The notes: generated by a model not told the origin, from the letters alone. A stretch of 38,762 bases of DNA from Acidimicrobiales bacterium (GCA_050744165.1 JBOGGN010000242.1:1-38762), one strand, 5' to 3'. Counted from the first letter of the stretch, positions 27,501 through 38,665 are shown. Made by a program: numbers and translations.

Positions 27501-29737
27501 CGGTTGACCCAGTGATGATCACTTCTTTGGTGGACAACATCTACGGCAACCTGGCCACCCTGCCCGGTTCAACCTGCGGCACCCTCATCGGCATCACCCT
27601 TCCGCCGGGGGCGACCACGCCGCCGTGCACGTTCACCGGAGCCTTCAACGGAAGGGCGCCTGCCTCCCAGACCGACACCGTCACGGTCACCGGCGTCGAC
27701 TCCCACGGCATCACCGTCACCGCCACGGCCATGGCGACGGTCACCCTGACCCCGGTCCTGCCGACCATCAGTGTCACCAAGGCGGCCAACCCGCCCAGCC
27801 TGCCGGCGCCCGGAGGCACGTTCACCTTCACCGTCCAAGTCCACAACCCCAACACGGTGGACCCGATCACCATCACCTCGCTGGTGGACAACATCTACGG
27901 TGACCTCTCCACCCGGGCCGGCTCAACCTGCGGCGCCCTGATCGGCGTCACCCTGGCACCCGGCGCCACCTCCTCGCCGTGCACCTTCACCGGCCCCTTC
28001 ACCGGGGTGTCCGGAGCCACCCAGACCGACACCGTCACTGTGACCGGCATGGACAGCAACGGCAACAAGGCCACCGCCACCGCCAACGCCACCGTCGCCC
28101 TGACACCGGGGCTGATGCCGGTGATCAGCGTCAGCAAGGCGGCCAACCCCCTAACCCTGCCGGCGCCCGGCGGCACCTTCACCTTCACGGTCCAGGTGAC
28201 CAATCCGAGCACGACCGACCCGATCACGATCACCTCGTTGGTGGACAACATCTACGGTGACCTGTCCACCCGGGCCGGGTCGACCTGCGGCGCCCTGATC
28301 GGCGTCACCCTGGCTCCCGGCGCCACCTCTTCGCCGTGCACCTTCACCGGCCCCTTCACCGGGGTGTCCGGGGCCAGCCAGACCGACACCGTCACGGTGA
28401 CCGGCATGGACAGCAATGGCAACACGGCCACCGCAACGGCCATGGCCACCGTCTCCCTGACGCCGGCCATCACGCCCGAGATCAGCGTGACCAAGGCGGC
28501 CAGCCCGGCCACCCTGCCGGCACCGGGTGGGACGTTCACCTTCACGGTGCAGGTCCACAACCCGAGCACCGTCGATCCGGTGACGATCACCTCGCTGGTG
28601 GACAACATCTACGGCGACCTCTCGACGATCACCGGCTCGACCTGCGGCGCCCTGATCGGCGTCACCCTGGCTCCTGGCGGCACGTCGGCGCCGTGTACCT
28701 TCCCGGGTTCGTTCACGGGCAACTCGGGTGCCAGCCAGACCGACACGGTCACGGTGACCGGCAAAGACAGCAACGGCAACACGGTCACCGCTACCGCCAA
28801 CGCCACCGTGTCGCTGACGCCCGGTCCCACGCCTCAGATCAGCGTCAGCAAAACGGCCGACCCGCTGAGCAAGCCAGCCCCCGGCGGAACATTCACCTTC
28901 ACAGTGGAGGTGACCAACCCAAGCACGACCGACCCGATCACCATCACCTCGCTGGTGGACAACATCTACGGCGACCTGACGAAGATCTCCGGCTCCACCT
29001 GTGGCGCCCTGATCGGCGTGACACTGGCACCCGGCGCCTCCTCGGCCCCGTGCACCTTCCCGGGCTCGTTCACGGGCAAGTCGGGCGACAGCCAGACGGA
29101 CACGGTGACCGCCACCGGCAAGGACACCAACGGCACGACAGTGACCGCGACGGCCATGGCGACCGTCACGCTGACCCCGCCGGCGCCCACGACCACCACG
29201 TCGACCTCGACGACCTCGACGACCTCGACCACGGCGACGTCCGCCCCGCCCGCGACGCCGGTGATCGCGGTCACCAAGGCCGCCAACCCCATCAGCCTTT
29301 CGGCGCCAGGCGGTACGTTCATCTTCACGGTGGTCGTGTCCAACCCGAGCACGACCGTCCCGGTCAAGATCACCTCGCTGGTGGACAACATCTACGGCGA
29401 CCTGACGAAGATCTCCGGCTCGACCTGCGGAACCCTGATCGGCGTCACGCTCAGCCCCGGCCAGAGCTCCTCGCCGTGCAGCTTCCCGGGGAGTTTCACC
29501 GGATCGGGTGGCGATACCCAGACCGACACGGTGACCGTCACCGGGGTCAACCCGGCTAACCCGTCCGGTACCCCGGTCACCGCCACCGCCAAGGCGACGG
29601 TCAGCATCATCGCCGCCACGTCGACGCCACTCGCCCTGACCGGCTTGGACGACCGGCGACCGCTGACGATCGGCTTTGGGCTCATCGCCGCCGGCCTGCT
29701 GGTTCTGGCGCTGTGCTGGCGCCGGCGCCTCAACTGA
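21542..29737 (+). CDS. Giant (2731 aa) cell-surface repeat protein: signal peptide, N-terminal domain, 16 Ig-like repeats, 6 DUF11-like repeats, LALTG sortase-type anchor
   Basis: The ATG at 21542 has an AAGGAG SD. The signal peptide is ALGLAIAVVPFVVTIPDAFA. Sixteen ~108-aa repeats match ...PTGTITF.(V/L)FGP.N..CTG.P.FTS...V.GNG.Y.S..FT....GTY.FVA.YSGD.NN......CG..NE.V.V. Six ~122-aa repeats match TFTFTV.V.NPSTVDPITITSLVDNIYGDL....STCG.LIGVTLAPG....CTF.G.F.G.....QTDTVTVTG.D..G. A Thr/Ser linker follows. The C-terminus reads LALTG-LDDRRPLTIG-FGLIAAGLLVLALCW-RRRLN. Confidence 0.85.
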   Translation: MGHEGQHRRRSSVARRTLQGALGLAIAVVPFVVTIPDAFAGVGFGVVPTFPSVVTVGQTGLPANLTIQNTSTTPDNASNVTLSTIDLVPACGTTFGTAPINDCPIANADPGVFTLSPTGTGQAGTACAGTTFTITTVDPATGQVSFSPSTPVVLQPPGTGPGGALAECVIDFTFTVNMGPTHVDANGQVDQLGFASGTNTLGHTGSGAGSSAVTVNLATLGITTSATSTATVGGGITDTATVSAAAPPGPAPTGTITFTAFTNSTCSGAPAFTSNAITVTGTGNYTSTPPFVTTAPGSVFWIASYSGDVSNAPVATHCGDAGETTTVNQAVPTIVTAASTTATIGGPISDSAVLANGLNPTGTITFTAFGPGNATCTAPAAFTSAPLAVAGNGTYMSGPFTPTTPGTYLWVASYSGDTNNAAVATPCGDMGETSTVNKATPAIVTTASGSGPVGSVISDSAVLSGGVDTPTGTITFNVFGPDNASCTGAPVFTSTATVNGNGTYSSSMFTTTAAGTYLFVASYSGDANNNAVASACGAANESVTITKASPAIATTPSPSVTAGGLVSDSATLSSGVNPTGTITFTLFGPGNPTCTGAAIFTSTASVNAGNGVYNSAAFTTTTPGTYNWVASYSGDANNNAVASTCASETVVVTQAHPTIMTQASASVPVGGTITDTATLAGGVSPTGTITFSIFAPGNPTCAGAPVATSMVPVTGNGNYVSAPFTTTAVGTYMFVVIYSGDTANASATSACGAANEAVTTTQATPTIATTPSVSVPVGGAVSDSATLANGLSPTGSITFTLFGPGNPTCTGAQVFTSNPIPVTGNGTYTSNTFTATMAGSYNWIATYSGDANNHSVASTCASETVVVTTTTPKIVTNASLTVPVGGTISDTATLSNGVNPTGTITFDVFGPNDATCSTVPAFTSVVSVTSGNGTYSSGPFTAVMAGTYRFVAMYSGDANNAAVTTMCNDPNESVVVTTVTPSLSTTASASVAVSGTVSDTAILSGGSNPTGTITFELFGPVAGCTGAPIFTATKPVTGDGAYSSGTFTPTAPGTYNFEASYSGDANNNAIPLTACGAAGENVTVTPATPAIVTMASASVAAGGTISDTATLTGGDAPTGTITFTVYGPGNTTCAGTGVASHTVAVTGDGSYASGSFPAAIAGTYRFIAAYSGDANNSAESTGCNDANESVVVTPAAPTLVTHASSTVAAGGTIQDTATLSGGASPMGTITITLFGPNNAACTGTPIQSTTDPVNGDGDYTSTPFVVNAAGTYQYVAVYGGDANNAGATSACGAANESVVVTPAAPTIATQASAPVAVGNPITDVATLSGGDNPTGTITFNVFGPHNATCTGAPVFSSTMAVTGDGNYTSNPFTPTMAGTYRFVDSYSGDANNAPTASACGAANESVAVGVASPTIVTTASAPVVAGGNISDIAVLSGGVTPSGTITFDVFGPNNATCTGAPLFTSTVPVAGNGSYASAPFTTTLAGTYQFVASYSGDANNGAVTSACDAANESVVVAKAGPAIATQASAPVTVGGAISDSATLSGGTGPSGTITFQVFGPNNATCTGAAAFTSSVTVAGNGTYASMSFTPTQPGTYRFVATYGGDANNAAAGPTSCGDPAESTVVSPGATTIVTKVSGSTTVGGTITDTATLAGGVNPTGTITFQVFGPNNATCTGIPAFTSTVPVTGNGNYTSATFTVPGAGTYGFVATYSGDTANSPAGPTACSDPNETTTATKVSPTISTMASPTGTVGGAITDTATLTGGFNPTGTITFQVFGPNNTTCTGAPAATSTAPVSGSGNYTSAPFSPTAPGSYQFVATYGGDANNNAAGPTACNDPAETATVTPSAVTFSTTASPSADVGQPIFDTADLTGSGTPTGTITYNLFGPNNATCTGAPAFTTTVNVNGSGMYTSASFTPTAAGTYEWVDTYSGDATTAPAGPTPCNDAAESVVVLPTPQIAVTKAANPTSEPEPGGNFTFTVTVSNPSTVDPVMITSLVDNIYGNLATLPGSTCGTLIGITLPPGATTPPCTFTGAFNGRAPASQTDTVTVTGVDSHGITVTATAMATVTLTPVLPTISVTKAANPPSLPAPGGTFTFTVQVHNPNTVDPITITSLVDNIYGDLSTRAGSTCGALIGVTLAPGATSSPCTFTGPFTGVSGATQTDTVTVTGMDSNGNKATATANATVALTPGLMPVISVSKAANPLTLPAPGGTFTFTVQVTNPSTTDPITITSLVDNIYGDLSTRAGSTCGALIGVTLAPGATSSPCTFTGPFTGVSGASQTDTVTVTGMDSNGNTATATAMATVSLTPAITPEISVTKAASPATLPAPGGTFTFTVQVHNPSTVDPVTITSLVDNIYGDLSTITGSTCGALIGVTLAPGGTSAPCTFPGSFTGNSGASQTDTVTVTGKDSNGNTVTATANATVSLTPGPTPQISVSKTADPLSKPAPGGTFTFTVEVTNPSTTDPITITSLVDNIYGDLTKISGSTCGALIGVTLAPGASSAPCTFPGSFTGKSGDSQTDTVTATGKDTNGTTVTATAMATVTLTPPAPTTTTSTSTTSTTSTTATSAPPATPVIAVTKAANPISLSAPGGTFIFTVVVSNPSTTVPVKITSLVDNIYGDLTKISGSTCGTLIGVTLSPGQSSSPCSFPGSFTGSGGDTQTDTVTVTGVNPANPSGTPVTATAKATVSIIAATSTPLALTGLDDRRPLTIGFGLIAAGLLVLALCWRRRLN
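22190..27400 (+). repeat. Coding tandem array: 16 diverged ~325-bp units (Ig-like domain repeats) inside the giant gene
   Basis: The unit containing TGTITF and YSGDANN recurs 16 times with ~50-70% aa identity. Antisense ORFs with ~330-bp periodicity in the six-frame track are echoes of this array. Confidence 0.85.
27401..29610 (+). repeat. Coding tandem array: 6 ~365-bp units (DUF11-like conserved repeat domain), two copies near-identical
   Basis: ITSLVDNIYGDL occurs six times. The units starting near 27830 and 28190 are almost identical at protein level (ITITSLVDNIYGDLSTRAGSTCGALIGVTLAPGATSSPCTFTGPFTGVSGA). A Thr/Ser linker at about 29180-29260 separates units 5 and 6. Confidence 0.8.
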
Positions 29738-29993: not shown

Positions 29994-32906
29994 CTACTGC
30001 GAGCGGCGCGGTAGTCGCCGCCGCCGGCGCCAGGTGACGCCCAGGCTGAGCAGGCCGGCCAGGATGAGCATGCCACCGGCGATGGTCGGGTCCTGGATCC
30101 GTGCCCCGGTGAGCGACAGCGAGGAGGTCGCGGTCGTCGTCGTGGTCCCCGAGCCAGTGGGCGCTGCGGTCACGGTGATCGAGACCTGCGCCCTCAGCGA
30201 GGCATCGGCCGTGCTGGCAACGATCGTGTGCTGGCCGGGCGCGGTGGCCGCGGGAATGACAACGGTGGCCGCAAAGTTCCCGAGAGAGTTTGCCGTCGCC
30301 ATTCCGAGCGACACCGGGCTGCTGAGAAGGTCCATCTGGAGTTCGCTGCCGGCCGGGAAGCCGCTGCCGGTGACCATGGTCGGCTGGCCAGCCGGCACGG
30401 AATTGGGGTTCACCTGAACCGTCGGAGTACCTGTGGTGGTGGTGGTTGCCCCCAGCGTGCTCGACGTTGTCGAAGAGCTCGTGGTCGAGGATCTCGTCGT
30501 GGTCGTTGTCGACCCGACTGTCGAGGATGTGGTTGACCCCACTGTCGTGGTTGTCGTCGGGGCAGTGGTGGTGCTGCTGGTCGTGCTGCTCGAGGTCGTG
30601 CTGCTCGAGGTGGTGGTCGCACTCACCGTGACCGTCTCGGCGGCCTCACCGCAGGCGGTGGGCCCAGCCGGGAGGGAGTCTGGGTCGCCGTCGTAGGACG
30701 CCAGCCACTGATAGGTACCAACAGCGGTCGAAATGAACGGCTCTGAGGTGTAGCTGCCGTCACCATTGACTGTCACCGTGGTGCTGAAGGCGGCGGTCCC
30801 GGTGCAGGCGGCGTCACCGGGGCCGAAAAGGTTGAAGGTGATTGTCCCGGTCGGCGAAAAGCCGCCAGTGAGGGCAGCCGTGTCGCTCACCGAGCCGCCG
30901 ACGGTCACTGATGCCGAGGCATGAGTGGAGATCGAGGTTGAGGCCCTGATCACGCTGAGGTGTTCGTTGACCGCCCCGCAGGCACTGGTCACGGGGTTGT
31001 TGTTGCTGTCCCCGCTGTAGACGGCGGTCCACAGGTAGTCACCCACCTTTTCGGTGGCGAAGGAATCCGAGTCGTACGAGCCGTTGCCGTTGACCCGCAC
31101 GACCGCAGTGAACGCTGGCGTCGCAGAGCAGGTTTGGTCGTTCGGACCGAACAGGCTGAAGGTGATCGATCCGGTGGGGATGCGACCGCCCGACAGCGCG
31201 GCCGAGTCGCTGACCGATCCACCCACCGCGACCGTCGGGGACGCCATCGTCGCGATTGTCGGCGTGGCCATCGCCAGCACCGTGGTCGTCGTGGGTCCTG
31301 TGGTGGTTGTGGTCGGGCCGGTGGTGGTTGTGGTCGGGCCGGTGGTGGTTGTCGTCGTCGCCGGGAGCGTGGTGGTGGTGGTCGAGGTGGTTGTGGTTGT
31401 TGGGCCGGTTGTGGTTGTGGTGGTTGCCGGGACCGTGGTCGTGGTGGTGGTGGTGCTCGTAGAGGTCGTCGTCGTACTGGTACTGCTTGACGTGGTGGTC
31501 GTGGAGCTGACGATGACCGTCTCGGCGGCGTCGCCGCAGGTGGTGGGCCCTGCTGGGTTAGAGTTGGCGTCGCCGCTGTACGACGCCACCCATTCGTACG
31601 TGCCGGCAGCGGTGGTGGTGAAGAGGCTCGACATGTAGTTGCCGTCGCCGTTGACGGACACCGTGTTGCTGAACGTCACGGTCCCGCTGCAGGTCGGGTC
31701 GCCCGGGCCAAAGAGGTCGAACGTGATGGTTGCGGAGGGCGAGAAACCTCCGGTGAGGGTGGCGGTGTCGCTGATAGAGCCGCCGACGGTGACCGAGGCT
31801 GATGCGTGCGTAGAGATGGTGGTGTTGGCTTTGGTCACTGTCACCGATTCATTCGCCGCGTTGCAGGCGCTGGTCACCGGGTTGTTGTTGCCGTCACCGC
31901 TGTAAGCCGCCGTCCATTGGTAGTTGCCGGTCGACACGGCCACGAAGCTCTCCGAGGAGTAGGTGCCGTTGCCGGAGACCGGCACCATGGCGGTAAAGGC
32001 CGGCGTCGCCGAGCAGTTGGCGTCGTCCGGGCCGAAGAGAATAAAGGTGATCGTGCCGGTGGGCGTGTTCCCGTCCAGGAGAGAGGCGGTGTCACTCACC
32101 GATCCGCCCACGGCCACCGATGCCGAGGCCGCGGTCGTCAGAATGGGCGTCGACGCAGCCGGCGATACCGTCACCTTCTCGTTGCTGTCGAGACAGTTGA
32201 TGTCCGACACAGCCAGGTTGTTACCGTCGCCGCTGTAGGACGCCGTCCACACGTAGGTACCGGTTGTCGTCGGGAAAAAGGGAGCCGACGGGTACATGGC
32301 GTTACCCAGATTCACGGGCACCGAGGTGGTGAAGCTCGGCGCAGTTTGGGCTTGGCAGGCGGCCACGGAGGCCCATAGGTCAAAGGTGATCGTGCCGGTG
32401 GGGCTGACACCCCCGGCCAGTTTGGCGCTGTCGTCGATCGAGCCGCCCACGGCAACGCCGGCCGACGCGGTGGTGGTGAGCACCGGCGCCACTTGGCCCA
32501 CGATCGTCGATTCGGGAGCGTCCGAACACGAGGTCGGTCCGACCGGATTGTTGTTGCCGTCACCGCTGTAGGTGACCTGCCACCGGTAGGTGCCTGCCTG
32601 GCTGGTGGTGAAGCTGGTTGAGTCGTAACTGCCATCGCCCGAGACCGGCACCATCGAGGTGAACGGCGGCGTACCAGCGCAGGTGGAGTTGTCCGGACCA
32701 AATAAGTCGAAAGTCAGCGTGCCCGTCGGCGCGGATCCACCAGACAGATCGATGACATCGAAGATTGCAAGTCCTACCGTCGTGTCGGGGGAGGCGACCG
32801 ATGAAATCGAGGGCGTCGCCAATGCCAACGCCGGCGTCGCAACCGTCCCCACACAGAGGCACGCGAGCGCGACGGCCCCAATGACGCCCCCGAGCCTCCT
32901 GAGCAC
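29994..32906 (-). CDS. 970-aa cell-surface repeat protein, paralog of the giant protein: 6 Ig-like repeats, Thr-rich linkers, terminal Ig-like domain, LSLTG anchor signal
   Basis: The signal peptide is MLRRLGGVIGAVALACLCVGTVATPALALA. The same PTGTITF...YSGDGNN repeat family occurs six times. There are two long Thr/Ser/Gly-Pro linkers. The C-terminus reads LSLTG-ARIQDPTIAGG-MLILAGLLSLGVTW-RRRRRLPRRSQ. Only 36 bp separate it from the upstream gene on the same strand. Confidence 0.85.
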   Translation of the reverse strand: MLRRLGGVIGAVALACLCVGTVATPALALATPSISSVASPDTTVGLAIFDVIDLSGGSAPTGTLTFDLFGPDNSTCAGTPPFTSMVPVSGDGSYDSTSFTTSQAGTYRWQVTYSGDGNNNPVGPTSCSDAPESTIVGQVAPVLTTTASAGVAVGGSIDDSAKLAGGVSPTGTITFDLWASVAACQAQTAPSFTTSVPVNLGNAMYPSAPFFPTTTGTYVWTASYSGDGNNLAVSDINCLDSNEKVTVSPAASTPILTTAASASVAVGGSVSDTASLLDGNTPTGTITFILFGPDDANCSATPAFTAMVPVSGNGTYSSESFVAVSTGNYQWTAAYSGDGNNNPVTSACNAANESVTVTKANTTISTHASASVTVGGSISDTATLTGGFSPSATITFDLFGPGDPTCSGTVTFSNTVSVNGDGNYMSSLFTTTAAGTYEWVASYSGDANSNPAGPTTCGDAAETVIVSSTTTTSSSTSTTTTSTSTTTTTTTVPATTTTTTGPTTTTTSTTTTTLPATTTTTTGPTTTTTGPTTTTTGPTTTTVLAMATPTIATMASPTVAVGGSVSDSAALSGGRIPTGSITFSLFGPNDQTCSATPAFTAVVRVNGNGSYDSDSFATEKVGDYLWTAVYSGDSNNNPVTSACGAVNEHLSVIRASTSISTHASASVTVGGSVSDTAALTGGFSPTGTITFNLFGPGDAACTGTAAFSTTVTVNGDGSYTSEPFISTAVGTYQWLASYDGDPDSLPAGPTACGEAAETVTVSATTTSSSTTSSSTTSSTTTAPTTTTTVGSTTSSTVGSTTTTTRSSTTSSSTTSSTLGATTTTTGTPTVQVNPNSVPAGQPTMVTGSGFPAGSELQMDLLSSPVSLGMATANSLGNFAATVVIPAATAPGQHTIVASTADASLRAQVSITVTAAPTGSGTTTTTATSSLSLTGARIQDPTIAGGMLILAGLLSLGVTWRRRRRLPRRSQ
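31290..31352. repeat. 21-bp tandem repeat (2 perfect + 1 degenerate copy) encoding a GPTTTTT linker repeat in the 970-aa surface protein gene
   Basis: The unit ggtcgggccggtggtggttgt lies at 31311-31331 and 31332-31352, with a degenerate copy at 31290-31310. Confidence 0.75.
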
Positions 32907-32942: not shown

Positions 32943-33905
32943 TTAGTAGGCGTCGATGTCGCCGGTCGTCCCGATTGCAATATGGGGCCCGGCCCCCGGT
33001 TGGAGCCATTGGAGCAACGCAATCAGGTCGGATGAAGGAAGGCTTACACAACCGTTGGTGGGCCTACCTAACGATACGTGGAGAAAAATAGCCGAACCCC
33101 TCCCAGGAACGACCGGGCTGGCGTTGTATTCGATAACCGCGAAGTAGTCATATGCCGGCGCTTCGGTCCACAAGGCCTCGCTCCCGCCTCCGAAGGGATT
33201 CTCGGTGCTGCAGGAACCAACGTGCTGGAAGGTGTTGTACTCCGGCGAGGATGGCTCCTCGTCCCACCAGTCGCCGCAGACCAGGACGTGGTAGCTGCCG
33301 TGAACACCAGGGTTGGGGTCGATGCCGTAGAACGTCGAGCCGATGCCGAACAGCCCGATCGGGGAGGTGCCGTCGCCTTCAATCTTGTCGCTGCTCAGTC
33401 CGTGGAGGCCGACCCAGCCTGACCACGGTCCCCCTGCCACGGTCCAGCAGGTCCCGGTCCGTTGCCACAAGGTCACGACCGCAGTGGTGGCCGCGGTGGA
33501 ACTGGCCACGACGGTCACCAACTGGCTGCCGCCGCCCGTGGCCTTCATCTGATTGGCGGGCGTGGCGGTGCAGGCCGCGGCGGTGGTGCTGACAGGGGCG
33601 GCGATCGTGGTCTGCACGCGCTGGGCAGTGGTCGTAGTCGCGGCCTGCGCCGTCGTCGGGGCGGCGAGGCTTGTCGTGCTGGCGATCGCGGGCACCGTCG
33701 AGGAGGTGGTGGTCGTTGCCGTCGTCACCGAGGTGGTGGCGGCCAGCGTGGTGCTCGATTGCAGGTGGGCAGCACCGGAGGTCCTCGCGCCACCACATGC
33801 GGCGGTCGCCAGCAGGGTCGCCACCGCGGCCCAAGCTCTCGTCCGGCGACGGCGTGCTGCCGGCGGCGTTTCCCACGGGCGAGGGGCGGTGGGTGACCGG
33901 TTCAT
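32943..33905 (-). CDS. L,D-transpeptidase (YkuD-fold) family lipoprotein with Thr-rich linker
   Basis: The lipobox is LLATAAC. After a Thr/Ala-rich linker comes a YkuD-like core: GDGTSPIGLFGI, then FLHVS...GRPTNGCVSLPSSDLIALLQWL (compare ...H.S....SHGC[VI][RN][LV] in known Ldt). Asn replaces the His usually preceding the catalytic Cys. Confidence 0.6.
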   Translation of the reverse strand: MNRSPTAPRPWETPPAARRRRTRAWAAVATLLATAACGGARTSGAAHLQSSTTLAATTSVTTATTTTSSTVPAIASTTSLAAPTTAQAATTTTAQRVQTTIAAPVSTTAAACTATPANQMKATGGGSQLVTVVASSTAATTAVVTLWQRTGTCWTVAGGPWSGWVGLHGLSSDKIEGDGTSPIGLFGIGSTFYGIDPNPGVHGSYHVLVCGDWWDEEPSSPEYNTFQHVGSCSTENPFGGGSEALWTEAPAYDYFAVIEYNASPVVPGRGSAIFLHVSLGRPTNGCVSLPSSDLIALLQWLQPGAGPHIAIGTTGDIDAY

Positions 33906-34758
33906 GCAGCTGCCCGGACCTTATCGTGGTGGCGTGTTCGGCCCACGACGCCCCCGTGGCACCGCCGCGGGTCTGGTCGCGTTGGTTCTCGTGGCCGCCG
34001 GATGCGGGGGACCCGTGGCTTCGAAGGAGCTGCGCGGCACCACCACCTTGCCTCGAGGCACGACCTCTACCGCCTCCATGGTCCTCGGCGACACCACAAC
34101 CTCAAGCACCGTGCCCGCCAGTTCGTCGACCACCCGAGCGGCGACCTCGACGACCAGCACCACCGCTGTGGCCTCGTCGAGCTTCGTCGGAACCGAGGCG
34201 ACGATCACCGCCGCCGACGTGCCCTACACCTGGCGGTCCGGATGCCCCGTAGGACCGACCCAACTCCGGATGCTGCACCTCAGTTATTGGGGCTTCGACA
34301 ACCAGCCCCACGTTGGCACCATGGTGGTCAACGCTGCCGTGGTAGCCGACGTCTTCAAGGTTTTCTCGACCCTGTTCGCGGAACATTTCCCGATTCAGCA
34401 GATGCAGCCCGAGGACGCCTACCAGGGCAGCGACCCGGCCTCGATGGTCGCCGATAACACCTCGGGTTTCAACTGCCGCAATGCCGTGGTGCCCCCAGGT
34501 CAACCAACGTCGTGGTCAGTTCACGCCTACGGGGAAGCAATCGACGTCAACACCGTTCAGAATCCCTACGTCGAGGGTGGCACCGTGATGCCGCCCGGTG
34601 GGGCCGCCTACCTCAACCGCTCCGCTTACCGCCCCGGGATGGCGGTACCGGGCGGCCAGCTCGTCGCCGCCTTCGCCTCGGTGGGCTGGCAATGGGGCGG
34701 CCGCTGGGCCTCGACAGGAACGCCTGACTACCAGCACTTCTCGCTCACCGGCGGCTGA
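33904..34758 (+). CDS. Peptidase M15 (VanY / D-Ala-D-Ala carboxypeptidase-like, LAS metallopeptidase) lipoprotein
   Basis: Has a lipoprotein signal (LVALVLVAAGCGG) and a Thr/Ser linker. An H-x6-D zinc motif (SVHAYGEAIDVN) and a terminal His (DYQHFS) are present. The ATG at 33904 overlaps the divergent Ldt start on the opposite strand. An alternative GTG lies at 33934. Confidence 0.68.
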   Translation: MQLPGPYRGGVFGPRRPRGTAAGLVALVLVAAGCGGPVASKELRGTTTLPRGTTSTASMVLGDTTTSSTVPASSSTTRAATSTTSTTAVASSSFVGTEATITAADVPYTWRSGCPVGPTQLRMLHLSYWGFDNQPHVGTMVVNAAVVADVFKVFSTLFAEHFPIQQMQPEDAYQGSDPASMVADNTSGFNCRNAVVPPGQPTSWSVHAYGEAIDVNTVQNPYVEGGTVMPPGGAAYLNRSAYRPGMAVPGGQLVAAFASVGWQWGGRWASTGTPDYQHFSLTGG

Positions 34759-34778
34759 GCCCGCGGTCAGCGGCTCAG
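34755..34778. terminator. Hairpin spanning both stop codons of convergent genes (candidate bidirectional terminator)
   Basis: CTGAGCC (34755-61) pairs with GGCTCAG (34772-78) around a 10-nt loop. It overlaps TGA 34756-58 on the plus strand and TGA 34777-75 on the minus strand. Confidence 0.3.
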
Positions 34779-35329
34779 GTGCCTGGGTAGGGGATTTGGG
34801 CAGAGGGACATTGGAAGCCTCCACTGATTTGGACGTTGCCGACCTCGACGGTTGCGCCGTCTGCGCCCGTGCCCACGAAGTTGGCCAGCGTCAGGACGAA
34901 GTCCCCCGCACCGGTAGCGATTGACTGCATTGCCTCCTCATAGAGCACACGGTTGGGATACTGCGGGTTGATGAGGATGGCTGCGCCGGGCACGACGATG
35001 ACCGCTGTGGGGGCTGCCAGCACCGAATGGGCGGGGGTGCCCGGTCCCCCTGCCGGCAGATCGATGCGAACGAACATCCCGCCCTTCGGGGCGGCGCCGC
35101 AAGTGACCTTGGTCACCGTGACCTGGGGGTAGAACGGCGCCTGGAGGACACCGGGAGTCACGCCGTCAATGGTCAGGCTGGTTGCGCTCGGGGTGGTCGA
35201 GGTCGTTGTTGCCGCGACCGTCGTGGTCGTCTGGCCAACGCTCGATTTGCTGCAGCCCGCCAGGCAGGCGGCGGCCAGGCAGAGCGCGGCTAGCCACAGC
35301 CCCGCGACGGTGGCCGATCGATGCTCCAC
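34775..35329 (-). CDS. Hypothetical lipoprotein with Thr-rich linker
   Basis: Has a signal peptide plus lipobox (LWLAALCLAAACLAGCS) and a TTTTVAATTTSTTPS linker. No recognisable catalytic motif was found. Confidence 0.6.
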   Translation of the reverse strand: MEHRSATVAGLWLAALCLAAACLAGCSKSSVGQTTTTVAATTTSTTPSATSLTIDGVTPGVLQAPFYPQVTVTKVTCGAAPKGGMFVRIDLPAGGPGTPAHSVLAAPTAVIVVPGAAILINPQYPNRVLYEEAMQSIATGAGDFVLTLANFVGTGADGATVEVGNVQISGGFQCPSAQIPYPGT

Positions 35330-35368
35330 GCTGCGTTGCCCCCTCCTTGTGCGTCCCCCAGAGAGAGA

Positions 35369-35719
35369 TTAGCTGCACCTTTCGTCGGACTCGGTGTACT
35401 GGGTCTTCCCTACGTTGACCACCATGGGGCCGGTACAGCTCTTGCCCGAGGCACTGGCGTTCAGGGTGGCGGTGATCATGGTCCCGCTGGAGGTGAACCC
35501 GAGGCAATCGACGATGCCCGGCGCTTGGCCGAAGCAGCTGATCGATCCCTTGTAGTCGACGTTGTGGGCGTGCAACACCTGAACGACGTCGGCGGCAGTG
35601 GCCGTGCGCACGACCGATTTACTAGGGCCCTTGGCGCTCTTGCTGCCGCAACCGCCGGCCAGCAGGGTGACGACGGCGGCGGCGCAAAGGCCGAGGCTTA
35701 CCTGGTGCGACACAGACAT
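35369..35719 (-). CDS. Small hypothetical Cys-rich lipoprotein (116 aa)
   Basis: The ATG at 35719 is Met66 of the track ORF. The lipobox is LLAGGCGS, followed by four further Cys (SCFG...DCLG...SCTG...ERCS). Confidence 0.5.
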   Translation of the reverse strand: MSVSHQVSLGLCAAAVVTLLAGGCGSKSAKGPSKSVVRTATAADVVQVLHAHNVDYKGSISCFGQAPGIVDCLGFTSSGTMITATLNASASGKSCTGPMVVNVGKTQYTESDERCS

Positions 35720-35816
35720 GTGGAGATAGTCGCCGATTCTCTCGCCCGGGTCCAGCCCCGGGCCCCCGGCCCCCGCTAGGCCTGGCATCAGCCGCGGGCC
35801 GCTAGGGTCGCCGAGG

Positions 35817-36839
35817 ATGGCATTGGGTACCCGGCCGGCACGCCCGACTCGCCGTCGCAGACGGCCCTGGTTGTTCTTCGCCCTGCTGGCCACGGTACTC
35901 GTCCTCGTTGTCAACGCCGCCCTGTCGGCTCGCTCGCCCGGTCCCGTCCGCCAGCAGGCGGAGCAGTCTTACCTGGACCAGGTCCTGCCGGGGGTGCAGC
36001 AGTCGAGTCAGCAAGGCTTGGATGTCGGCAACCTCTTGAGCCAGGCACTGACCCTGTCCCCCACGACGCTCGCCAATCACCTGGACGAGGACTTTTCCCA
36101 GGCCCAACAGACTTTGGCGGTGGTGGAAAAATTGAACCCCCCGACCGCCATGAAGACACCTCAGTCGTTGCTGGTGTCGGCGTTGGCTCTTCGCGCGTCG
36201 GGCACCAAGGCACTGGGCCAGGCGATCACCACCGCACTCAGCAATCAGCCCCAGGTGTCGGCGGTCAGCGCCCTGGCCAGCGCGGGACTCGACCTCGAGG
36301 CCTCCGATCGCGCCTACGCCCTTTTCCAGCAGGCGGTACCGGCCTCCGGTGGCATCGTCCCCAAGTCGGTGTGGGTCGCCGACACCTCGACCTACACGAC
36401 GCCGATGCTCTCGGTCTTCGTGAACAGCCTCCGTGCCCATACCAGCCTGACTCCCGTCGTGGCGGTGGCGGTCGTGGCGGTGACCACCGACCCAGCACCG
36501 GTGAATCTCCTCAACGGGGTCCAGATCCTGCCCGTCGCCGGTACCCTCAGTCTGCAGGTCGTGGTTGCCAACACCGGCAACCAGCAGGAGCCGAACCTGA
36601 CGGTCATGGCCAGCATCGCGCCGTCGCAGAGCGGCCCGACGCAGAGCGTCCGCAACTTCATCGGTCTCAGTCCGGGCGAATCCAAAACGGTGGGTCTCGG
36701 CCCCCTCCGGATGATCCCCGGCCAGGCCACCACGCTCACCGCGACTGTCACGCCGAGCGTCTCGACGACCGCCACAACGGTTGGGGGCCAATCGGCCATA
36801 CCGGACAACAGCCAGGTCATCATGCTCGAAATGCAGTGA
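35817..36839 (+). CDS. Hypothetical N-terminally membrane-anchored secreted protein
   Basis: Has an Arg-rich N-region plus a TM/signal anchor (RRRRRPWLFFALLATVLVLVVNAALSA), followed by a Gln/Ala-rich helical region and a Thr/Val-rich C-terminal domain. No family was recognised. Confidence 0.55.
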   Translation: MALGTRPARPTRRRRRPWLFFALLATVLVLVVNAALSARSPGPVRQQAEQSYLDQVLPGVQQSSQQGLDVGNLLSQALTLSPTTLANHLDEDFSQAQQTLAVVEKLNPPTAMKTPQSLLVSALALRASGTKALGQAITTALSNQPQVSAVSALASAGLDLEASDRAYALFQQAVPASGGIVPKSVWVADTSTYTTPMLSVFVNSLRAHTSLTPVVAVAVVAVTTDPAPVNLLNGVQILPVAGTLSLQVVVANTGNQQEPNLTVMASIAPSQSGPTQSVRNFIGLSPGESKTVGLGPLRMIPGQATTLTATVTPSVSTTATTVGGQSAIPDNSQVIMLEMQ

Positions 36840-36854: not shown

Positions 36855-36931
36855 TCACGGGCACCGTGAGATTTCGTCACCTGGTGCGTTGTCTGTGTAA
36901 CGTTGGTGCGCCTGCCGGGAACGATTCCCGG
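36855..36931. promoter_or_regulatory. Two palindromic candidate operators in the lower-GC region upstream of the mini-ORF operon
   Basis: TCACGGgcaCCGTGA lies at 36855-36869 and CCGGGAacgatTCCCGG at 36915-36931. Both sit in a 135-bp lower-GC stretch (…ttgtctgtgtaacgttgg…) between the stop at 36839 and the ATG at 36976. Confidence 0.35.
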
Positions 36932-36975
36932 CAAAGCGGCCATATCGACCAGGGTCGAGGGCGGACGGAGTAGCT

Positions 36976-37128
36976 ATGTACGGAAAGACAGCGGTCACCG
37001 GAGTAGCAGGGTCGGGGATACTGGCCGTGACCGGTCGCCCCGTCTGGGGATTGGTCCTCTTCGGCGCAGTGCTGATCATGCTCGGCCTATTGCTGTTGCG
37101 CGTAGTGAGCGTTCGGAGCTACCGCTGA
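36976..37128 (+). CDS. 50-aa mini-protein consisting essentially of a sortase-type C-terminal sorting signal (LAVTG + TM + basic tail)
   Basis: It is not in the ORF track because it is under 60 aa. The ATG at 36976 has a GGAG SD 5 nt upstream. The product is MYGKTAVTGVAGSGILAVTGRPVWGLVLFGAVLIMLGLLLLRVVSVRSYR, with a TGA stop at 37126-37128. The ATG of the next gene lies 7 nt further on. Confidence 0.45.
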   Translation: MYGKTAVTGVAGSGILAVTGRPVWGLVLFGAVLIMLGLLLLRVVSVRSYR

Positions 37129-37134
37129 GCCAAG

Positions 37135-37710
37135 ATGCCGGTCATCCACGACGCTCCGTCGTTTCCGGACCAATCCGCTCCGGAGGACCGACCGACCGCG
37201 CTCGACCGGCCGGTCGCCATCGCTGTTTTCGCAGTGGCGGCGGCATTGCTGATCTGGGAGGCCCGCTTCCGAGTGATCGAGGCTTCCGTCTCGGCATGGA
37301 CGATCCGGTTGTTCCGGGTCCGACCGGCGCGCTCCCTCGGTCCGGACGTGATCTTTCCCCTCGGCCACCGCTGGGTCGGGTTCGCGCTGACCTTGTCCTG
37401 CACCTCGGCGCTGCTCATGGTGCCGTTCTTCGTGATCGCCGGAGTGCTCCTGCTCTTCCGGAGGGTCCCGCGGCGCCGTGCGCTAGTTGCGTTGGCGGTG
37501 GCGGCCGCCGTCCTGTTTGCCATCAACCAGCTGCGCCTAGTCGTGATCGCGGCGTCGATGCTCTGGTGGGGCTTCGAGACGGGCTACCAGCGCAGCCACG
37601 TGCTGCTCGGAACCACACTCAGCACTATCGGCGTGATCATCGGAATCATCATCTTCGTCTGGATGCTGGTCGAGGATCCGAGTCGTCGTACTCGACGGAC
37701 CGCCTCATGA
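37135..37710 (+). CDS. Small polytopic membrane protein (5-6 TM); possible exosortase/archaeosortase-family core (inference)
   Basis: The 191-aa product has hydrophobic helices at about aa 27-40, 80-107, 116-130, 135-146 and 156-178. A Cys lies in a TM (LTLSCTSAL, C89). An N-x-x-R (AINQLRL, N131/R134) sits about 45 aa downstream. A His-containing segment (RSHVLLGT) follows. This arrangement recalls the Cys/Arg active-site spacing of exosortases. It is translationally coupled to the mini-ORF. Confidence 0.55.
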   Translation: MPVIHDAPSFPDQSAPEDRPTALDRPVAIAVFAVAAALLIWEARFRVIEASVSAWTIRLFRVRPARSLGPDVIFPLGHRWVGFALTLSCTSALLMVPFFVIAGVLLLFRRVPRRRALVALAVAAAVLFAINQLRLVVIAASMLWWGFETGYQRSHVLLGTTLSTIGVIIGIIIFVWMLVEDPSRRTRRTAS

Positions 37711-37783
37711 AAGCCCTTCTCTTGCTGTCCCGTAACAACCAACACAACGTCAGCCCAGCTAGTTCCAGCCCTTTGGAGGAGTT

Positions 37784-38665
37784 ATGAGTTCAGGTCGCCT
37801 TCGGCTCTCACTTGGCAAGTTTGCCGGGGCCGGACTGATCGCAACGGTGGTCTTGGGGATGGCAGCAGCCTCGCCTGCCTTCGCCGACACATCGACTGCC
37901 ACTGCCAACGCAGCCACACTGCAACTCGGGTCATCGACCCTCCTCACGACCGGGCAGTGCACCAGCAGCAACCCCGGGTCTGGGGCAAATGACACCTGCG
38001 GCCAGACACCTAGCCTCAGCCTCCTCGGCACCCAGACGGCGATCGAGGCGGGTCTGCTGGTTCAGCAGACCGTCGCCCGGGCCGACGGCACCTCGGCCGC
38101 GTGCGCTGGACTGGTCGGCACCGGCGGGACCATCCAGATCGGCGCCGGGGGAACCTGCACCGTCACCGGCGCGGCTCCCGGCGGTGTCCAGCTGAACTTG
38201 GGCTTGGCCACGGTGCACGCTGACGCCATCCTGGCCGAATGCACCGCTTCGTCGACCGGGACTCCCACCGCTTCGGTGCAGTTGGTCAACGCCACGATTA
38301 GCCTGCTCGGCGGCGGCACCACCCCCATCATCTCGTCGCCGCCCGCGAACGACACGGCCGTCGACCTGGGTGCCCTGGTCACCGCCACCCTCAACAAGCA
38401 GCCCGCCACGACCCCGGCACCGCCGGCCGGCTCCATCAGTACCTCCGCCCTCGACGTCAGCGTCCTGAGTGGCGTGCTCGGCACACCGCCACTGGTGCAC
38501 CTGACGGTCGGCACCGTCTCCTGCGGTCCCAACGCCGTTACGCCGCCGACGCCCGCCTTCCCGCTGGAGGGCGCTCCTATCGCGGCCGGAATCTTCCTGG
38601 TCGCCGGGTACATCGGGTATCGCTTCTGGTGGACGCCCCGGCGGCGGGCCCAGACTCTGGTCTAG
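37784..38665 (+). CDS. Secreted Thr/Gly/Ala-rich protein with C-terminal tripartite tail (short motif + TM helix + RRR), a candidate dedicated sorting substrate
   Basis: A strong GGAGGAG SD lies 6 nt upstream. The signal peptide is LIATVVLGMAAASPAFA. The mature region is Cys-containing and low in complexity. The C-terminus reads ...TPAFPLEG-APIAAGIFLVAGYIGYRFWW-TPRRRAQTLV. Confidence 0.7.
   Translation: MSSGRLRLSLGKFAGAGLIATVVLGMAAASPAFADTSTATANAATLQLGSSTLLTTGQCTSSNPGSGANDTCGQTPSLSLLGTQTAIEAGLLVQQTVARADGTSAACAGLVGTGGTIQIGAGGTCTVTGAAPGGVQLNLGLATVHADAILAECTASSTGTPTASVQLVNATISLLGGGTTPIISSPPANDTAVDLGALVTATLNKQPATTPAPPAGSISTSALDVSVLSGVLGTPPLVHLTVGTVSCGPNAVTPPTPAFPLEGAPIAAGIFLVAGYIGYRFWWTPRRRAQTLV

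What the first reader, a model, noticed from the sequence alone, without database searches (positions are those of the whole stretch)
36976..38665. Compact three-gene module: sorting-signal-only mini-protein, exosortase-like membrane protein, and a secreted protein with a non-canonical C-terminal sorting tail
Three tightly linked plus-strand genes are preceded by two palindromic operators. The first is a 50-aa peptide that is little more than an LAVTG motif, a TM helix and a basic tail. The second is a 191-aa polytopic membrane protein with a transmembrane Cys (C89) and an N-x-x-R (N131/R134) about 45 residues later. That spacing is reminiscent of the Cys/Arg catalytic pair of exosortases and archaeosortases. 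The third is a signal-peptide protein ending in FPLEG-APIAAGIFLVAGYIGYRFWW-TPRRR, that is, a short motif, a TM helix and an Arg cluster. This matches the architecture of exosortase and sortase substrates but none of the catalogued motifs (PEP-CTERM, PGF-CTERM, LPXTG and others). An enzyme gene immediately followed by its single dedicated target is the signature of dedicated sorting systems. An upstream mini-substrate has, to my knowledge, not been described.
Basis: partly seen in the sequence, partly recalled or inferred. Interest (0 to 1): 0.85.

Follow-up and report, generated by a model that had tools for sequence, protein, structure and literature searches.

The report
Actinobacterial mini-exosortase protein-sorting cassette
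The three genes are a real, conserved protein-sorting cassette of an uncultured actinobacterium: a small membrane enzyme of the exosortase family, the secreted protein it most likely processes, and a tiny partner peptide carrying a sortase-type LAxTG tag. Database curators have already catalogued this kind of cassette, but nobody has studied it experimentally.

Summary
All three ORFs exist exactly as described.

**Enzyme.** The 191-aa protein passes the curated exosortase/archaeosortase signature TIGR04178 (32.2 bits, cutoff 23). It is closest to XrtP/S/R but below their cutoffs. C89, N131, Q132, R134 and H155 are invariant in 20 homologs and are predicted to lie on one membrane face.

**Cargo.** The 293-aa protein belongs to the family NCBI names 'choice-of-anchor P'. 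Its tail (CGPN…[FIL]PxxGxP[IV]A–TM–RRR) is conserved.

**Synteny.** Of 73 related loci with the enzyme, 57 have the cargo and 49 the mini-protein. Of 19 loci with only the glycosyltransferase, the numbers are 0 and 2.

- The cassette normally includes an 'XrtP-associated' GT2 glycosyltransferase. It is absent here because the contig ends 97 nt after the cargo gene.
- The mini-protein family is widespread and NCBIfam already holds a model for a related branch ('LAXTG motif-containing small protein').
- LAxTG is the class E sortase motif. Two giant proteins on this contig end in LALTG/LSLTG signals.

So the mini-protein may be a sortase substrate, an exosortase substrate or a non-cleaved partner; this is unresolved. 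The two palindromes are real but not conserved.

**Verdict:** a divergent, unclassified member of a known but uncharacterised kind.

The parts
36976..37128 (+). Mini-protein gene (50 aa): N-terminal MY, Gly-rich 15-residue stretch, LAVTG (nt 37021-37035), one TM helix, basic tail. Predicted N-out/C-in.
   Evidence: Homologs were found in 49 of 73 enzyme-bearing loci. All 47 unique peptides carry LAxTG and 43 of 47 start with MY. Matches NF058583 below cutoff (17.8 bits, cutoff 65).
36967..36970 (+). Shine-Dalgarno (GGAG) of the mini-protein gene, 5 nt before the ATG
   Evidence: Sequence. GGAGG plus ATGTACGG is conserved in L087, L088, L089 and L001.
37135..37710 (+). Mini-exosortase (191 aa, 4 predicted TM). 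Catalytic-type residues: C89 (nt 37399-37401), N131/Q132/R134 (R134 at nt 37534-37536), H155 (nt 37597-37599).
   Evidence: TIGR04178 32.2 bits against cutoff 23. XrtP 86, XrtS 83 and XrtR 79 bits, all below their cutoffs. Invariant residues. AF2 model pLDDT 85. Topology.
37784..38665 (+). Cargo protein (293 aa), a divergent member of the family NCBI names choice-of-anchor P / DUF8394. It is all-beta with four invariant Cys.
   Evidence: There are 82 homologs. AF2 model pLDDT 86.7. No solved structural relative.
37784..37885 (+). Sec-type signal peptide of the cargo (aa 1-34, …SPAFA|DTS)
   Evidence: Read from the sequence. A32, A34 and T36 are invariant and D35 and S37 are conserved in at least 90% of 51 homologs. 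NCBI's own 268-aa gene call starts at an internal Met and loses this peptide.
38522..38665 (+). Tripartite C-terminal tail of the cargo. C247-G-P-N250 closes the folded domain. The signature F259-P-L-E-G-A-P265-I-A267 is at nt 38558-38584. The TM helix is about A264-W283. The basic cluster is R286-R288.
   Evidence: C247, G248 and N250 are invariant. P249, P265 and R288 are conserved in at least 90% of sequences. 41 of 53 unique tails from related loci have a PxxGxP-like motif.
37775..37779 (+). Shine-Dalgarno (GGAGG) of the cargo gene
   Evidence: Sequence.
36913..36933 (.). Perfect 9+9-nt palindrome (TGCCGGGAA cga TTCCCGGCA) upstream of the cassette. Function unknown.
   Evidence: Shuffle P about 0.008. 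Not conserved in orthologous loci.
36855..36869 (.). 6+6-nt palindrome (TCACGG gca CCGTGA), probably a chance match
   Evidence: P(>=6) is about 0.45 in shuffles.
35817..36839 (+). 340-aa protein with an N-terminal TM segment. It is a neighbour conserved only in the window's own clade and sits directly upstream of the cassette. It may be an accessory component.
   Evidence: Homologs occupy the same position in L087-L091. There are no family hits other than a weak CARDB match.

Best explanation
This is a dedicated protein-sorting cassette of Actinomycetota. It is built around a minimal (191 aa, 4 predicted TM) enzyme of the exosortase/archaeosortase family that is sister to the curated subtypes XrtP, XrtR and XrtS.

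**Likely mechanism**
1. The 293-aa all-beta protein is exported by Sec (inferred from its signal peptide).
2. It stays tethered by its C-terminal TM helix, with the RRR cluster on the cytoplasmic side (inferred).
3. The enzyme has Cys89, Arg134 and His155 predicted at the outer membrane boundary. It recognises the conserved [FIL]P-x-x-G-x-P-[IV]-A signature at the membrane surface and cleaves there through a thioacyl intermediate. It then transfers the protein to an acceptor. This step is inferred by analogy with archaeosortase A, whose conserved Cys173, Arg214 and Arg253 are catalytically critical and whose substrates become C-terminally lipid-anchored.
4. In most relatives the cassette also encodes a PgaC/cellulose-synthase-like GT2 ('XrtP-associated glycosyltransferase'), and in the window's clade sometimes WecB. 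The cargo is therefore probably displayed on, or attached to, a HexNAc-type surface polymer or the envelope (speculative).
5. The mini-protein is a genuine conserved third component. It is predicted to sit N-out with its invariant LAxTG at the outer membrane face. Its most likely fate is cleavage by a transpeptidase. I rank the organism's class E sortase slightly above the exosortase itself, but this is not settled.

**Shown:** family membership, residue conservation, synteny and tail conservation. **Inferred:** cleavage, the acceptor, and the role of the mini-protein.
For: **Enzyme**
- TIGR04178 is passed.
- R46, E49, C89, R110, N131, Q132, R134 and H155 are invariant in 20 homologs.
- There are four TM segments. 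The Arg-rich loop 109-119 and the C-terminus fall on one side, which puts C89, R134 and H155 on the other.

**Cargo**
- The cargo family is present in 57 of 73 enzyme-bearing loci and in 0 of 19 GT2-only loci.
- The tail motif is conserved from Acidimicrobiia to Kineococcus, Klenkia and Micromonosporaceae.
- Homologs are named choice-of-anchor P and pass that model.

**Glycosyltransferase**
- The GT2 of relatives passes the NF053846 'XrtP-associated glycosyltransferase' equivalog (542 and 522 bits, cutoff 520).
- The same GT2 family lies downstream in the window's own clade in L089.

**Mini-protein**
- It is present in 49 of 73 enzyme-bearing loci and in 2 of 19 GT2-only loci, and stays in the cassette when the gene order is rearranged.

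**Literature**
- 'Dedicated' one-to-one enzyme/target adjacency is the published criterion for such systems (bioRxiv 10.1101/2023.06.07.544157).
- ArtA catalytic residues and lipid anchoring: PMC9263693 and PMC6098224.
Against: - There is no experimental evidence for any bacterial system of this clade. I found no paper on XrtP or PVV-CTERM.
- The enzyme fails the XrtP, XrtS and XrtR cutoffs, and in my scan also Pfam PF09721 (12.1 bits, cutoff 25.7).
- The window's cargo does not itself reach the choice-of-anchor P model.
- Tail conservation could partly reflect simple co-inheritance of a permanent TM anchor with its domain.
- No GT2 is on this contig. In the close relatives L087 and L088 none lies within 9 kb.
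- Topology is predicted, not measured. The outer loop 46-89 also carries several Arg residues.
- The loci are not independent: several are duplicates or truncated contigs. 79 of them were found through the GT2, so GT2 co-occurrence is inflated.
Confidence: 0.7

Rival explanations
1. The mini-protein is a substrate of the housekeeping class E sortase, not of the exosortase. The sortase cleaves LAxT|G and links the 19-residue Gly-rich peptide to peptidoglycan. The cassette uses that wall-linked peptide in some way.
For: - LAXTG is the published class E sortase motif (PMC5148588).
- All 47 unique mini-proteins have exact L-A-x-T-G with a freely varying x, as sortase motifs do. Two relatives (L071, L072) have LPxTG instead.
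- One member passes the generic LPXTG-anchor model TIGR01167.
- Two giant Ig-repeat proteins on this contig end in LALTG and LSLTG signals, so the organism evidently has such a sortase.
- A bona fide class E sortase lies directly after the enzyme in Leifsonia L074 (222.5 bits, cutoff 160). A sortase homolog flanks the cassette in Ornithinimicrobium L081.
- The mini-protein's motif differs from the cargo's PxxGxP signature, so one enzyme reading both is unlikely.
Against: - No sortase gene is on this contig, and only 2 of 73 cassettes have one nearby.
- The mini-protein has no signal peptide and no cargo domain, which is unprecedented for a sortase substrate.
- It tracks the exosortase (49 of 73 loci) and not the GT2 alone (2 of 19), which needs a functional link to the exosortase.
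- The 47-of-47 count is partly circular, because the seed peptides were picked by that motif.
Confidence: 0.4
2. One reading: the mini-protein is a second, cargo-less substrate of the exosortase, which would then read a sortase-like LAxTG signal.
For: - The mini-protein gene sits immediately upstream of the enzyme gene. The gap here is 6 nt, which suggests translational coupling.
- Its presence is tied to the enzyme.
- The motif abuts the TM helix directly (2 residues). By contrast the two LAxTG-type signals on this contig have 7-8-residue charged spacers.
- In Kitasatospora L051 and L056 the only signal-bearing gene next to the enzyme is a protein of more than 1000 aa ending in LPDTG.
Against: - The motif differs from the cargo's tail.
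- The Kineococcus, Klenkia, Modestobacter and Catenuloplanes cassettes keep enzyme and cargo but lack the mini-protein, so it is not the obligatory substrate.
- To my knowledge no exosortase is known to read LPXTG-type motifs.
Confidence: 0.25
3. The mini-protein is not cleaved at all. It is a small single-pass subunit that stabilises, positions or regulates the exosortase or the GT2 synthase, as SafA does for the actinobacterial housekeeping sortase.
For: - SafA is a 52-aa single-pass protein genetically linked to its transpeptidase and acts through a short exoplasmic motif (PMC9282373).
- The mini-protein is of similar size and shows the same tight genetic linkage.
Against: - It is not a SafA homolog. 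Its predicted topology is the opposite (N-out against N-in), and its motif precedes the TM rather than following it.
- Strict conservation of a known transpeptidase recognition motif, plus the classic motif-TM-basic-tail layout, argues for processing.
Confidence: 0.2
4. The exosortase homolog does not process the cargo. It acts on or with the GT2 polysaccharide pathway, and the cargo's tail is simply a permanent membrane anchor.
For: - The enzyme abuts the GT2 in most loci.
- 10 of 73 enzyme-bearing loci show neither cargo nor mini-protein.
- From my own recollection of NCBIfam, exosortase-GT2 pairs without an obvious target exist elsewhere (XrtG type).
Against: - The cargo is found in 0 of 19 GT2-only loci and in 57 of 73 enzyme-bearing loci.
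- The window's clade keeps enzyme and cargo together even where the GT2 has moved away.
- The Pro/Gly signature at the membrane interface is conserved beyond what an anchor needs.
- Many of the loci with neither partner are truncated contigs.
Confidence: 0.12
5. The cargo tail is a Cys-containing sorting signal (CGP-CTERM or MYXO-CTERM type) processed by an Rce1/CPBP-type protease such as the ORF at 5867-6805.
For: - C247-G248-P249 is invariant or nearly so in close homologs.
- An Rce1-like ORF exists on the contig.
- Such signals are described in bioRxiv 10.1101/2023.06.07.544157.
Against: - No CPBP homolog occurs in any of the 91 related loci.
- The Cys is replaced by Val (VGPN) in 4 tails.
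- The CGP lies about 16 residues before the TM, at the end of the last beta strand of the folded domain. It is one of four invariant Cys, which look structural.
Confidence: 0.02

Closest known systems
Exosortase P / R / S systems of Actinomycetota (NCBIfam NF012139, NF012138, NF033767) with the 'XrtP-associated glycosyltransferase' (NF053846)
   Same: - Same size class (about 160-210 aa, 4 TM) and the same Cys/Arg/His set.
- These are the best-scoring models (86, 83 and 79 bits).
- Relatives of the window's enzyme sit next to GT2s that pass the XrtP-associated equivalog.
- A true XrtR locus (L007) has the same target-enzyme-GT2 logic.
   Different: - The window's enzyme, its 17 core homologs and ten enzymes sampled from the genome loci all fail the three curated cutoffs. 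Only the two outliers P0019 and P0020 pass XrtR.
- No GT2 is on this contig.
- The window's clade adds a 332-340-aa and a 561-613-aa protein.
Archaeosortase A / PGF-CTERM (Haloferax volcanii)
   Same: - Both belong to the family defined by TIGR04178.
- The substrate signal is tripartite: motif, TM helix, basic cluster.
- Conserved Cys and Arg residues are required for activity (PMC9263693).
   Different: - ArtA is larger and serves several substrates (nine PGF-motif proteins in H. volcanii).
- Its motif is PGF and its product is lipid-anchored.
- Here the enzyme is minimal, has one adjacent target with a PxxGxP[IV]A motif, and the acceptor is unknown.
PEP-CTERM / XrtA (EpsH) exopolysaccharide-associated sorting
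   Same: - An exosortase-family enzyme genetically linked to polysaccharide biosynthesis.
- A Pro-containing motif directly before a TM helix and an Arg cluster (PMC1569441).
   Different: - XrtA works in Gram-negative bacteria, is a large enzyme and has many targets per genome.
- Pfam PF09721 is not reached in my scan.
- No PEP-CTERM model hit was listed in the NCBIfam scan.
Class E sortase / LAXTG cell-wall sorting (Streptomyces SrtE)
   Same: - The mini-protein has the exact LAxTG-TM-basic-tail signal.
- Genuine LAxTG-type surface proteins are encoded on the same contig.
- A class E sortase lies inside one related cassette (PMC5148588).
   Different: - The mini-protein has no signal peptide and no passenger domain.
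- It is linked to an exosortase gene rather than to a sortase gene.
NCBIfam NF058583 'LAXTG motif-containing small protein'
   Same: - Similar length (the model has 54 positions) and the same layout.
- This peptide and nine relatives from other loci match it, several of them end to end.
   Different: All score 11-33 bits against a cutoff of 65, so the curated family is a narrow branch and this one is unnamed.
SafA, the small TM partner of the actinobacterial housekeeping sortase (PMC9282373)
   Same: A roughly 50-aa single-pass protein genetically coupled to a membrane transpeptidase.
   Different: - Opposite topology.
- An FPW motif after the TM rather than LAxTG before it.
- No sequence relationship.

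Membership tests
Exosortase/archaeosortase family (TIGR04178) | Score at or above the curated cutoff of the signature model | tested here: met
   32.2 bits against cutoff 23, E 1e-7, residues 86-178. 19 of 20 homologs also hit the model at E<=0.001.
Exosortase/archaeosortase family (TIGR04178) | Conserved Cys, Arg and His active-site-type residues | tested here: met
   C89, R134 and H155 (plus N131 and Q132) are invariant in 20 homologs. The literature basis is PMC9263693 and PMC6098224.
Exosortase/archaeosortase family (TIGR04178) | Polytopic membrane protein with the conserved residues on the extracytoplasmic face | tested here: inconclusive
   Four TM segments. The Arg-rich loop 109-119 and the C-terminus are on one side and C89, R134 and H155 on the other. 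This is a prediction only, and loop 46-89 also contains Arg residues.
Exosortase/archaeosortase family (TIGR04178) | A cognate protein with a tripartite C-terminal signal, adjacent in dedicated systems | tested here: met
   The cargo gene lies 73 nt downstream. Its tail is conserved. It co-occurs with the enzyme in 57 of 73 loci and in 0 of 19 loci without the enzyme.
Exosortase/archaeosortase family (TIGR04178) | Enzyme-dependent removal of the C-terminal signal | not testable with these tools
   This needs proteomics or genetics in a cultured carrier.
Pfam PF09721 Exosortase_EpsH | Score at or above the gathering threshold | tested here: inconclusive
   My scan gave 12.1 bits against a threshold of 25.7. 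However, the precomputed table lists PF09721.16 for this exact protein (P0001).
Exosortase P (NF012139) | Score of at least 200 bits | tested here: not met
   86 bits.
Exosortase P (NF012139) | Adjacent XrtP-associated GT2 (NF053846) | tested here: inconclusive
   No GT2 is on this contig, which ends 97 nt after the cargo gene. The relatives L002 and L004 pass the model (542 and 522 bits, cutoff 520). In the window's clade, L089 has a GT2 fragment scoring 237 bits over half the model.
Exosortase S (NF033767) and Exosortase R (NF012138) | Score of at least 145 bits (XrtS) or 150 bits (XrtR) | tested here: not met
   83 and 79.4 bits. The distant homologs P0019 and P0020 do pass XrtR at 182 bits.
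Choice-of-anchor P family (NF040603) | Score of at least 27 bits | tested here: not met
   The window's protein has no hit at E<=1. Homologs do pass: L004 and L006 at 58.7 bits, and Klenkia P0086 at 41.5 bits. The window's protein matches proteins with that name at E 8.5e-33 to 6.5e-48. It is therefore homologous but divergent.
PVV-CTERM (NF051874), and PEP-CTERM or other catalogued C-terminal signals | Model hit on the tail | tested here: not met
   Nothing was listed for the window's protein at E<=1. The L002 relative scored 21.9 bits against cutoff 27 on PVV-CTERM.
LAXTG motif-containing small protein (NF058583) | Score of at least 65 bits | tested here: not met
   17.8 bits, aligned over residues 8-47 to model positions 9-49 of 54. 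Relatives score 11-33 bits.
LAXTG motif-containing small protein (NF058583) | About 50 aa, with an LAxTG motif followed by a TM helix and a basic tail | tested here: met
   Sequence. All 47 unique relatives carry LAxTG.
Class E sortase substrate | LAxTG motif followed by a hydrophobic segment and a basic tail | tested here: met
   LAVTG-RP-[TM]-RVVSVRSYR. A Micromonospora relative passes TIGR01167 (17.9 bits, cutoff 15.9).
Class E sortase substrate | N-terminal signal peptide and a passenger domain | tested here: not met
   Only 15 residues precede the motif and there is no signal peptide. Export would rely on N-tail translocation, which is an inference.
Class E sortase substrate | A class E sortase encoded in the same genome | not testable with these tools
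   None is on this 38.8-kb contig. Its presence is implied by the LALTG and LSLTG tails of the 2805-aa and 970-aa proteins.
SafA (sortase-associated factor) | N-in single-pass protein with an exoplasmic FPW motif after the TM | tested here: not met
   The basic tail is C-terminal, which predicts N-out. The conserved motif precedes the TM.
Cys-containing CTERM signals processed by CPBP/Rce1 proteases | [quoted passage not shown] | tested here: not met
   The Cys is replaced by Val in 4 tails. No CPBP homolog occurs in the 91 related loci.

The most novel reading that the evidence does not exclude
**A two-transpeptidase relay.** The mini-protein would be a dedicated adaptor. The class E sortase would attach the adaptor's LAxT carboxyl to peptidoglycan. 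The exosortase would join the cargo's newly cleaved C-terminus to the adaptor's exposed, strictly conserved N-terminus (Met-Tyr), or to the polymer made by the GT2. An exosortase and a sortase would then cooperate to wall-anchor one protein.

This reading would explain several observations:
- why a sortase-type signal without cargo sits beside an exosortase-type signal with cargo;
- why the extreme N-terminus (MY) and a variable Gly-rich spacer are conserved;
- why a large LPDTG protein replaces the mini-protein in Kitasatospora.

Nothing here tests it directly.
Probability: 0.08. Interest if true: 0.8.

Novelty: new member of a known kind. Interest (0 to 1): 0.4.

Why it matters
I found no experimental study of a bacterial exosortase of this actinobacterial clade, and the acceptor molecule of these enzymes is unknown. 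These minimal enzymes, each with a single adjacent target, are about the simplest system in which to ask what an exosortase attaches its substrate to.

Cultured carriers exist, including Klenkia, Kineococcus, Modestobacter, Micromonospora, Leifsonia and Ornithinimicrobium.

The conserved LAxTG mini-protein raises a concrete and testable question: do sortase and exosortase pathways intersect in Gram-positive envelopes?

For this particular window the practical value is better annotation. Three 'hypothetical proteins' can be named, and the start codon of the cargo gene can be corrected.

Tried and rejected
- **Locus search with enzyme alignments.** The alignments were too divergent for back-translated locus search. 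I used the conserved GT2 as the handle instead.
- **Regulatory signals.**
  - The sigma-70 promoter scan found nothing, and the only terminator-like hits lie inside the enzyme gene.
  - The first inverted-repeat search, with a 10-nt minimum, missed the palindromes. A second search found them.
  - They are not conserved, so 'operators' is rejected as unsupported.
- **Fused enzyme genes.** Long open frames upstream of the enzyme in Kineococcus and Klenkia turned out to be Arg/Pro/Gly-rich out-of-frame noise.
- **CGP-CTERM/CPBP hypothesis.** Rejected.
- **SafA homology.** Rejected on topology and motif position.
- **Literature.** Nothing was found on XrtP or PVV-CTERM, and 'choice-of-anchor' appears only as an annotation label. 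The key 2012 archaeosortase paper (PMC3256604) is not held.
- **Search not used.** I ran no further search on the 50-aa peptide. The NCBIfam hits and the locus census already answered whether it is catalogued and conserved.


Full report
**Observation.** Only 6 nt separate the first two genes and 73 nt the last two. GGAG(G) Shine-Dalgarno sequences precede the first and third. The window is an entire 38,762-bp contig of an Acidimicrobiales MAG, in which these genes are annotated as hypothetical proteins. Two palindromes lie upstream. A perfect 9+9-nt one at 36913-36933 is moderately unusual: shuffle P is about 0.008, and 11 of 285 contig windows have one as good. A 6+6-nt one at 36855-36869 is expected by chance. 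Neither is conserved upstream of the orthologous cassettes, whereas the ribosome-binding site and the ATGTACGG start are. I therefore treat 'operators' as unsupported.

**The enzyme.** The 191-aa protein passes NCBI's curated exosortase/archaeosortase signature TIGR04178 (32.2 bits, cutoff 23). Its best full-length matches are exosortase P, S and R (86, 83 and 79 bits), all far below their cutoffs of 200, 145 and 150. Pfam PF09721 is not reached in my scan, although it is listed in the precomputed table for this protein.
- Twenty homologs were found at 90%-identity clustering. R46, E49, C89, R110, N131, Q132, R134 and H155 are invariant among them.
- A profile search of 1.84 billion representatives finds 506 relatives at E<=1e-10, mostly about 165-260 aa long.
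- An AlphaFold model (pLDDT 85) and hydropathy give four TM helices (about 27-45, 90-108, 120-138 and 161-179) and a beta hairpin at 66-84.
- The Arg-rich loop 109-119 and the Arg-rich C-terminus fall on one side. That places C89, R134 and H155 together at the opposite, presumably outer, boundary.
- This matches what is known of archaeosortase A. Its conserved Cys173, Arg214 and Arg253 are required for activity, and the family carries a sortase-like Cys/His/Arg set (PMC9263693 and PMC6098224).
- No solved structure is related.

**The cargo.** The 293-aa protein has a Sec-type signal peptide (…SPAFA|DTS). NCBI's 268-aa gene call starts at an internal Met and loses it. The domain is confidently predicted as all-beta (pLDDT 86.7) and has no solved relative. 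A C-terminal TM helix follows.
- Among 51 aligned homologs, four Cys are invariant. In the tail, C247, G248 and N250 are invariant, and P249, P265 and R288 are conserved in at least 90%.
- The recurring signature is CGPN-x(8-12)-[FIL]P-x-x-G-x-P-[IV]-A, then the TM helix, then RRR(R). 41 of 53 unique tails from related loci carry a PxxGxP-like motif.
- Where sources name the homologs, the name is 'choice-of-anchor P family protein'. Relatives pass that NCBIfam model (58.7 and 41.5 bits, cutoff 27). The window's own protein is too divergent to reach it.

**Synteny.** I fetched contigs that encode homologs of the enzyme and of the cargo. I also used the conserved neighbouring glycosyltransferase to pull 79 loci from named genomes; that scan found 314 matching stretches. 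My own profiles then gave the following census:

| Loci | with GT2 | with cargo family | with mini-protein | with both cargo and mini-protein |
|---|---|---|---|---|
| 73 with the enzyme | 67 | 57 | 49 | 43 |
| 19 with GT2 only | 19 | 0 | 2 | 0 |

- Both partners therefore follow the enzyme, not merely the GT2.
- Gene order varies: mini-Xrt-GT2-cargo, mini-Xrt-cargo-GT2, or cargo-mini-GT2-Xrt. Membership of the cassette persists through these rearrangements.
- Carriers include Acidimicrobiales MAGs and cultured Kineococcus, Klenkia, Modestobacter, Catenuloplanes, Micromonospora, Plantactinospora, Kitasatospora, Leifsonia, Ornithinimicrobium and Knoellia.
- Caveats: several loci are duplicates or truncated contigs, and finding most of them through the GT2 inflates GT2 co-occurrence.

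The GT2 of relatives passes NCBI's equivalog 'XrtP-associated glycosyltransferase' (542 and 522 bits, cutoff 520). It resembles PgaC and cellulose-synthase-type processive synthases. The window's contig stops 97 nt after the cargo gene. In its own clade (L087-L091) the order is as follows:
1. a 332-340-aa protein;
2. the mini-protein;
3. the enzyme;
4. the cargo;
5. a 561-613-aa acidic protein with no TM segment apparent on reading the sequence;
6. in L089 and L090, WecB;
7. in L089, a GT2 of the same family on the opposite strand.

So the polysaccharide link is retained in this clade, but more loosely.

**The mini-protein.** It is not an oddity of this window. It belongs to a broad family with this layout: Met-Tyr, a 16-31-residue Gly-rich stretch (37% Gly), LAxTG, one TM helix and a basic tail.
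- All 47 unique peptides carry exact LAxTG with a freely varying x, and 43 start with MY. This count is partly circular, because the seeds were picked by the motif.
- Every member tested matches NCBIfam NF058583, 'LAXTG motif-containing small protein', at 11-33 bits against a cutoff of 65, several of them end to end. Curators have therefore catalogued a narrow branch of the same family.
- LAXTG is the recognition motif of class E sortases (PMC5148588).
- On this same contig, the 2805-aa and 970-aa Ig-repeat proteins end in LALTG…RRRLN and LSLTG…RRRRR.
- A bona fide class E sortase sits directly after the enzyme in Leifsonia, and a sortase homolog flanks the Ornithinimicrobium cassette.
- Two relatives have LPxTG with long Gly/Pro spacers, and Kitasatospora has a large LPDTG protein in that position.
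- The Kineococcus and Klenkia group lacks the mini-protein but keeps the enzyme and the cargo.

From this I conclude that the cargo is the enzyme's primary candidate substrate. The mini-protein is a conserved accessory whose processing enzyme is unresolved. My estimates are sortase about 0.4, exosortase about 0.25 and not cleaved about 0.2. SafA is a precedent for an uncleaved partner, but it is not a homolog.

**Rejected alternatives.** A Cys-dependent CGP-CTERM or myxosortase-type signal is excluded. No CPBP gene accompanies any related locus, and the Cys is replaced by Val in some tails.

**Novelty and verdict.** Every component has a curated relative: XrtP/R/S, the XrtP-associated GT2, choice-of-anchor P and the LAXTG small protein. 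The kind of system is therefore known to annotators. However, this enzyme, cargo and mini-protein each fall below the specific model cutoffs. I found no publication or experiment on the clade. I classify it as a divergent, unclassified member of a known kind. The claims of an uncatalogued motif and an undescribed mini-substrate do not. The open and interesting point is why a cargo-less, sortase-type LAxTG peptide is wired into an exosortase cassette.

Noticed in passing
window 21320-29737 (+) and 29994-32906 (-): Two giant Ig-like repeat surface proteins (2805 aa and 970 aa, Big_3_5 repeats) end in LALTG…TM…RRRLN and LSLTG…TM…RRRRR. These are class-E-sortase-type wall-anchor signals. The 2805-aa ORF's first listed start is TTG, and its N-terminus looks over-extended.
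   Followed up: partly
window 37784-38665: NCBI's gene call for the cargo (268 aa, ACRDZ8_10770) starts at an internal Met and omits the signal peptide. Homologs of 290-300 aa support the 293-aa start at 37784.
   Followed up: yes
L074:10959-12660 (Leifsonia sp. T36S-04) and L081:9614-11011 (Ornithinimicrobium): A bona fide class E sortase (222.5 bits, cutoff 160) lies directly downstream of the mini-exosortase in Leifsonia. A sortase homolog flanks the Ornithinimicrobium cassette. These are the only two cassettes with a sortase nearby.
   Followed up: partly
L051:3082-6285 and L056:2678-6211 (Kitasatospora): A protein of more than 1000 aa ending in LPDTG-TM-KRKRK lies immediately upstream of the enzyme. 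Neither the mini-protein nor the choice-of-anchor P cargo is present in these loci.
   Followed up: partly
L071:4333-4794 and L072:4212-4592: These mini-protein variants start MYGGHIRHG, carry long Gly/Pro-rich spacers (110-139 aa in total) and have ALP[LF]TG instead of LAxTG. This suggests that the Gly-rich part is a variable-length stalk.
   Followed up: no
L087:8224-9909, L089:9978-11819, L090:10007-11812, L001:7621-8865: A 561-613-aa acidic protein follows the cargo gene in the window's clade. It has no TM segment apparent on reading the sequence and no family hit. Weaker homologs occur in 13 loci in total. It is probably encoded just beyond the end of this contig.
   Followed up: partly
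window 10321-18888: The conserved actinobacterial cell-division and envelope cluster: CrgA, glutamine amidotransferase, PknB (4 PASTA domains), PbpA, RodA/FtsW, PP2C phosphatase, FhaB and FhaA. The related locus L090 shows the same chromosomal neighbourhood.
   Followed up: partly
window 32943-35914: Cell-wall remodelling genes lie just upstream of the cassette: a YkuD L,D-transpeptidase, an M15 D-Ala-D-Ala carboxypeptidase and two small putative lipoproteins. The relatives L087, L089 and L090 have the same genes in that position.
   Followed up: no
L025:1222-3322: One Acidimicrobiales locus carries two divergent paralogs of the mini-exosortase back to back. One cargo gene and one mini-protein gene lie between and beside them.
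   Followed up: no
window 5867-6805 (+) and 6262-7566 (+): An Rce1/CPBP-like ORF overlaps the 5' part of a VIT-family ORF in another frame. The VIT domain begins only at residue 218, so the listed VIT start is probably too early.
   Followed up: no
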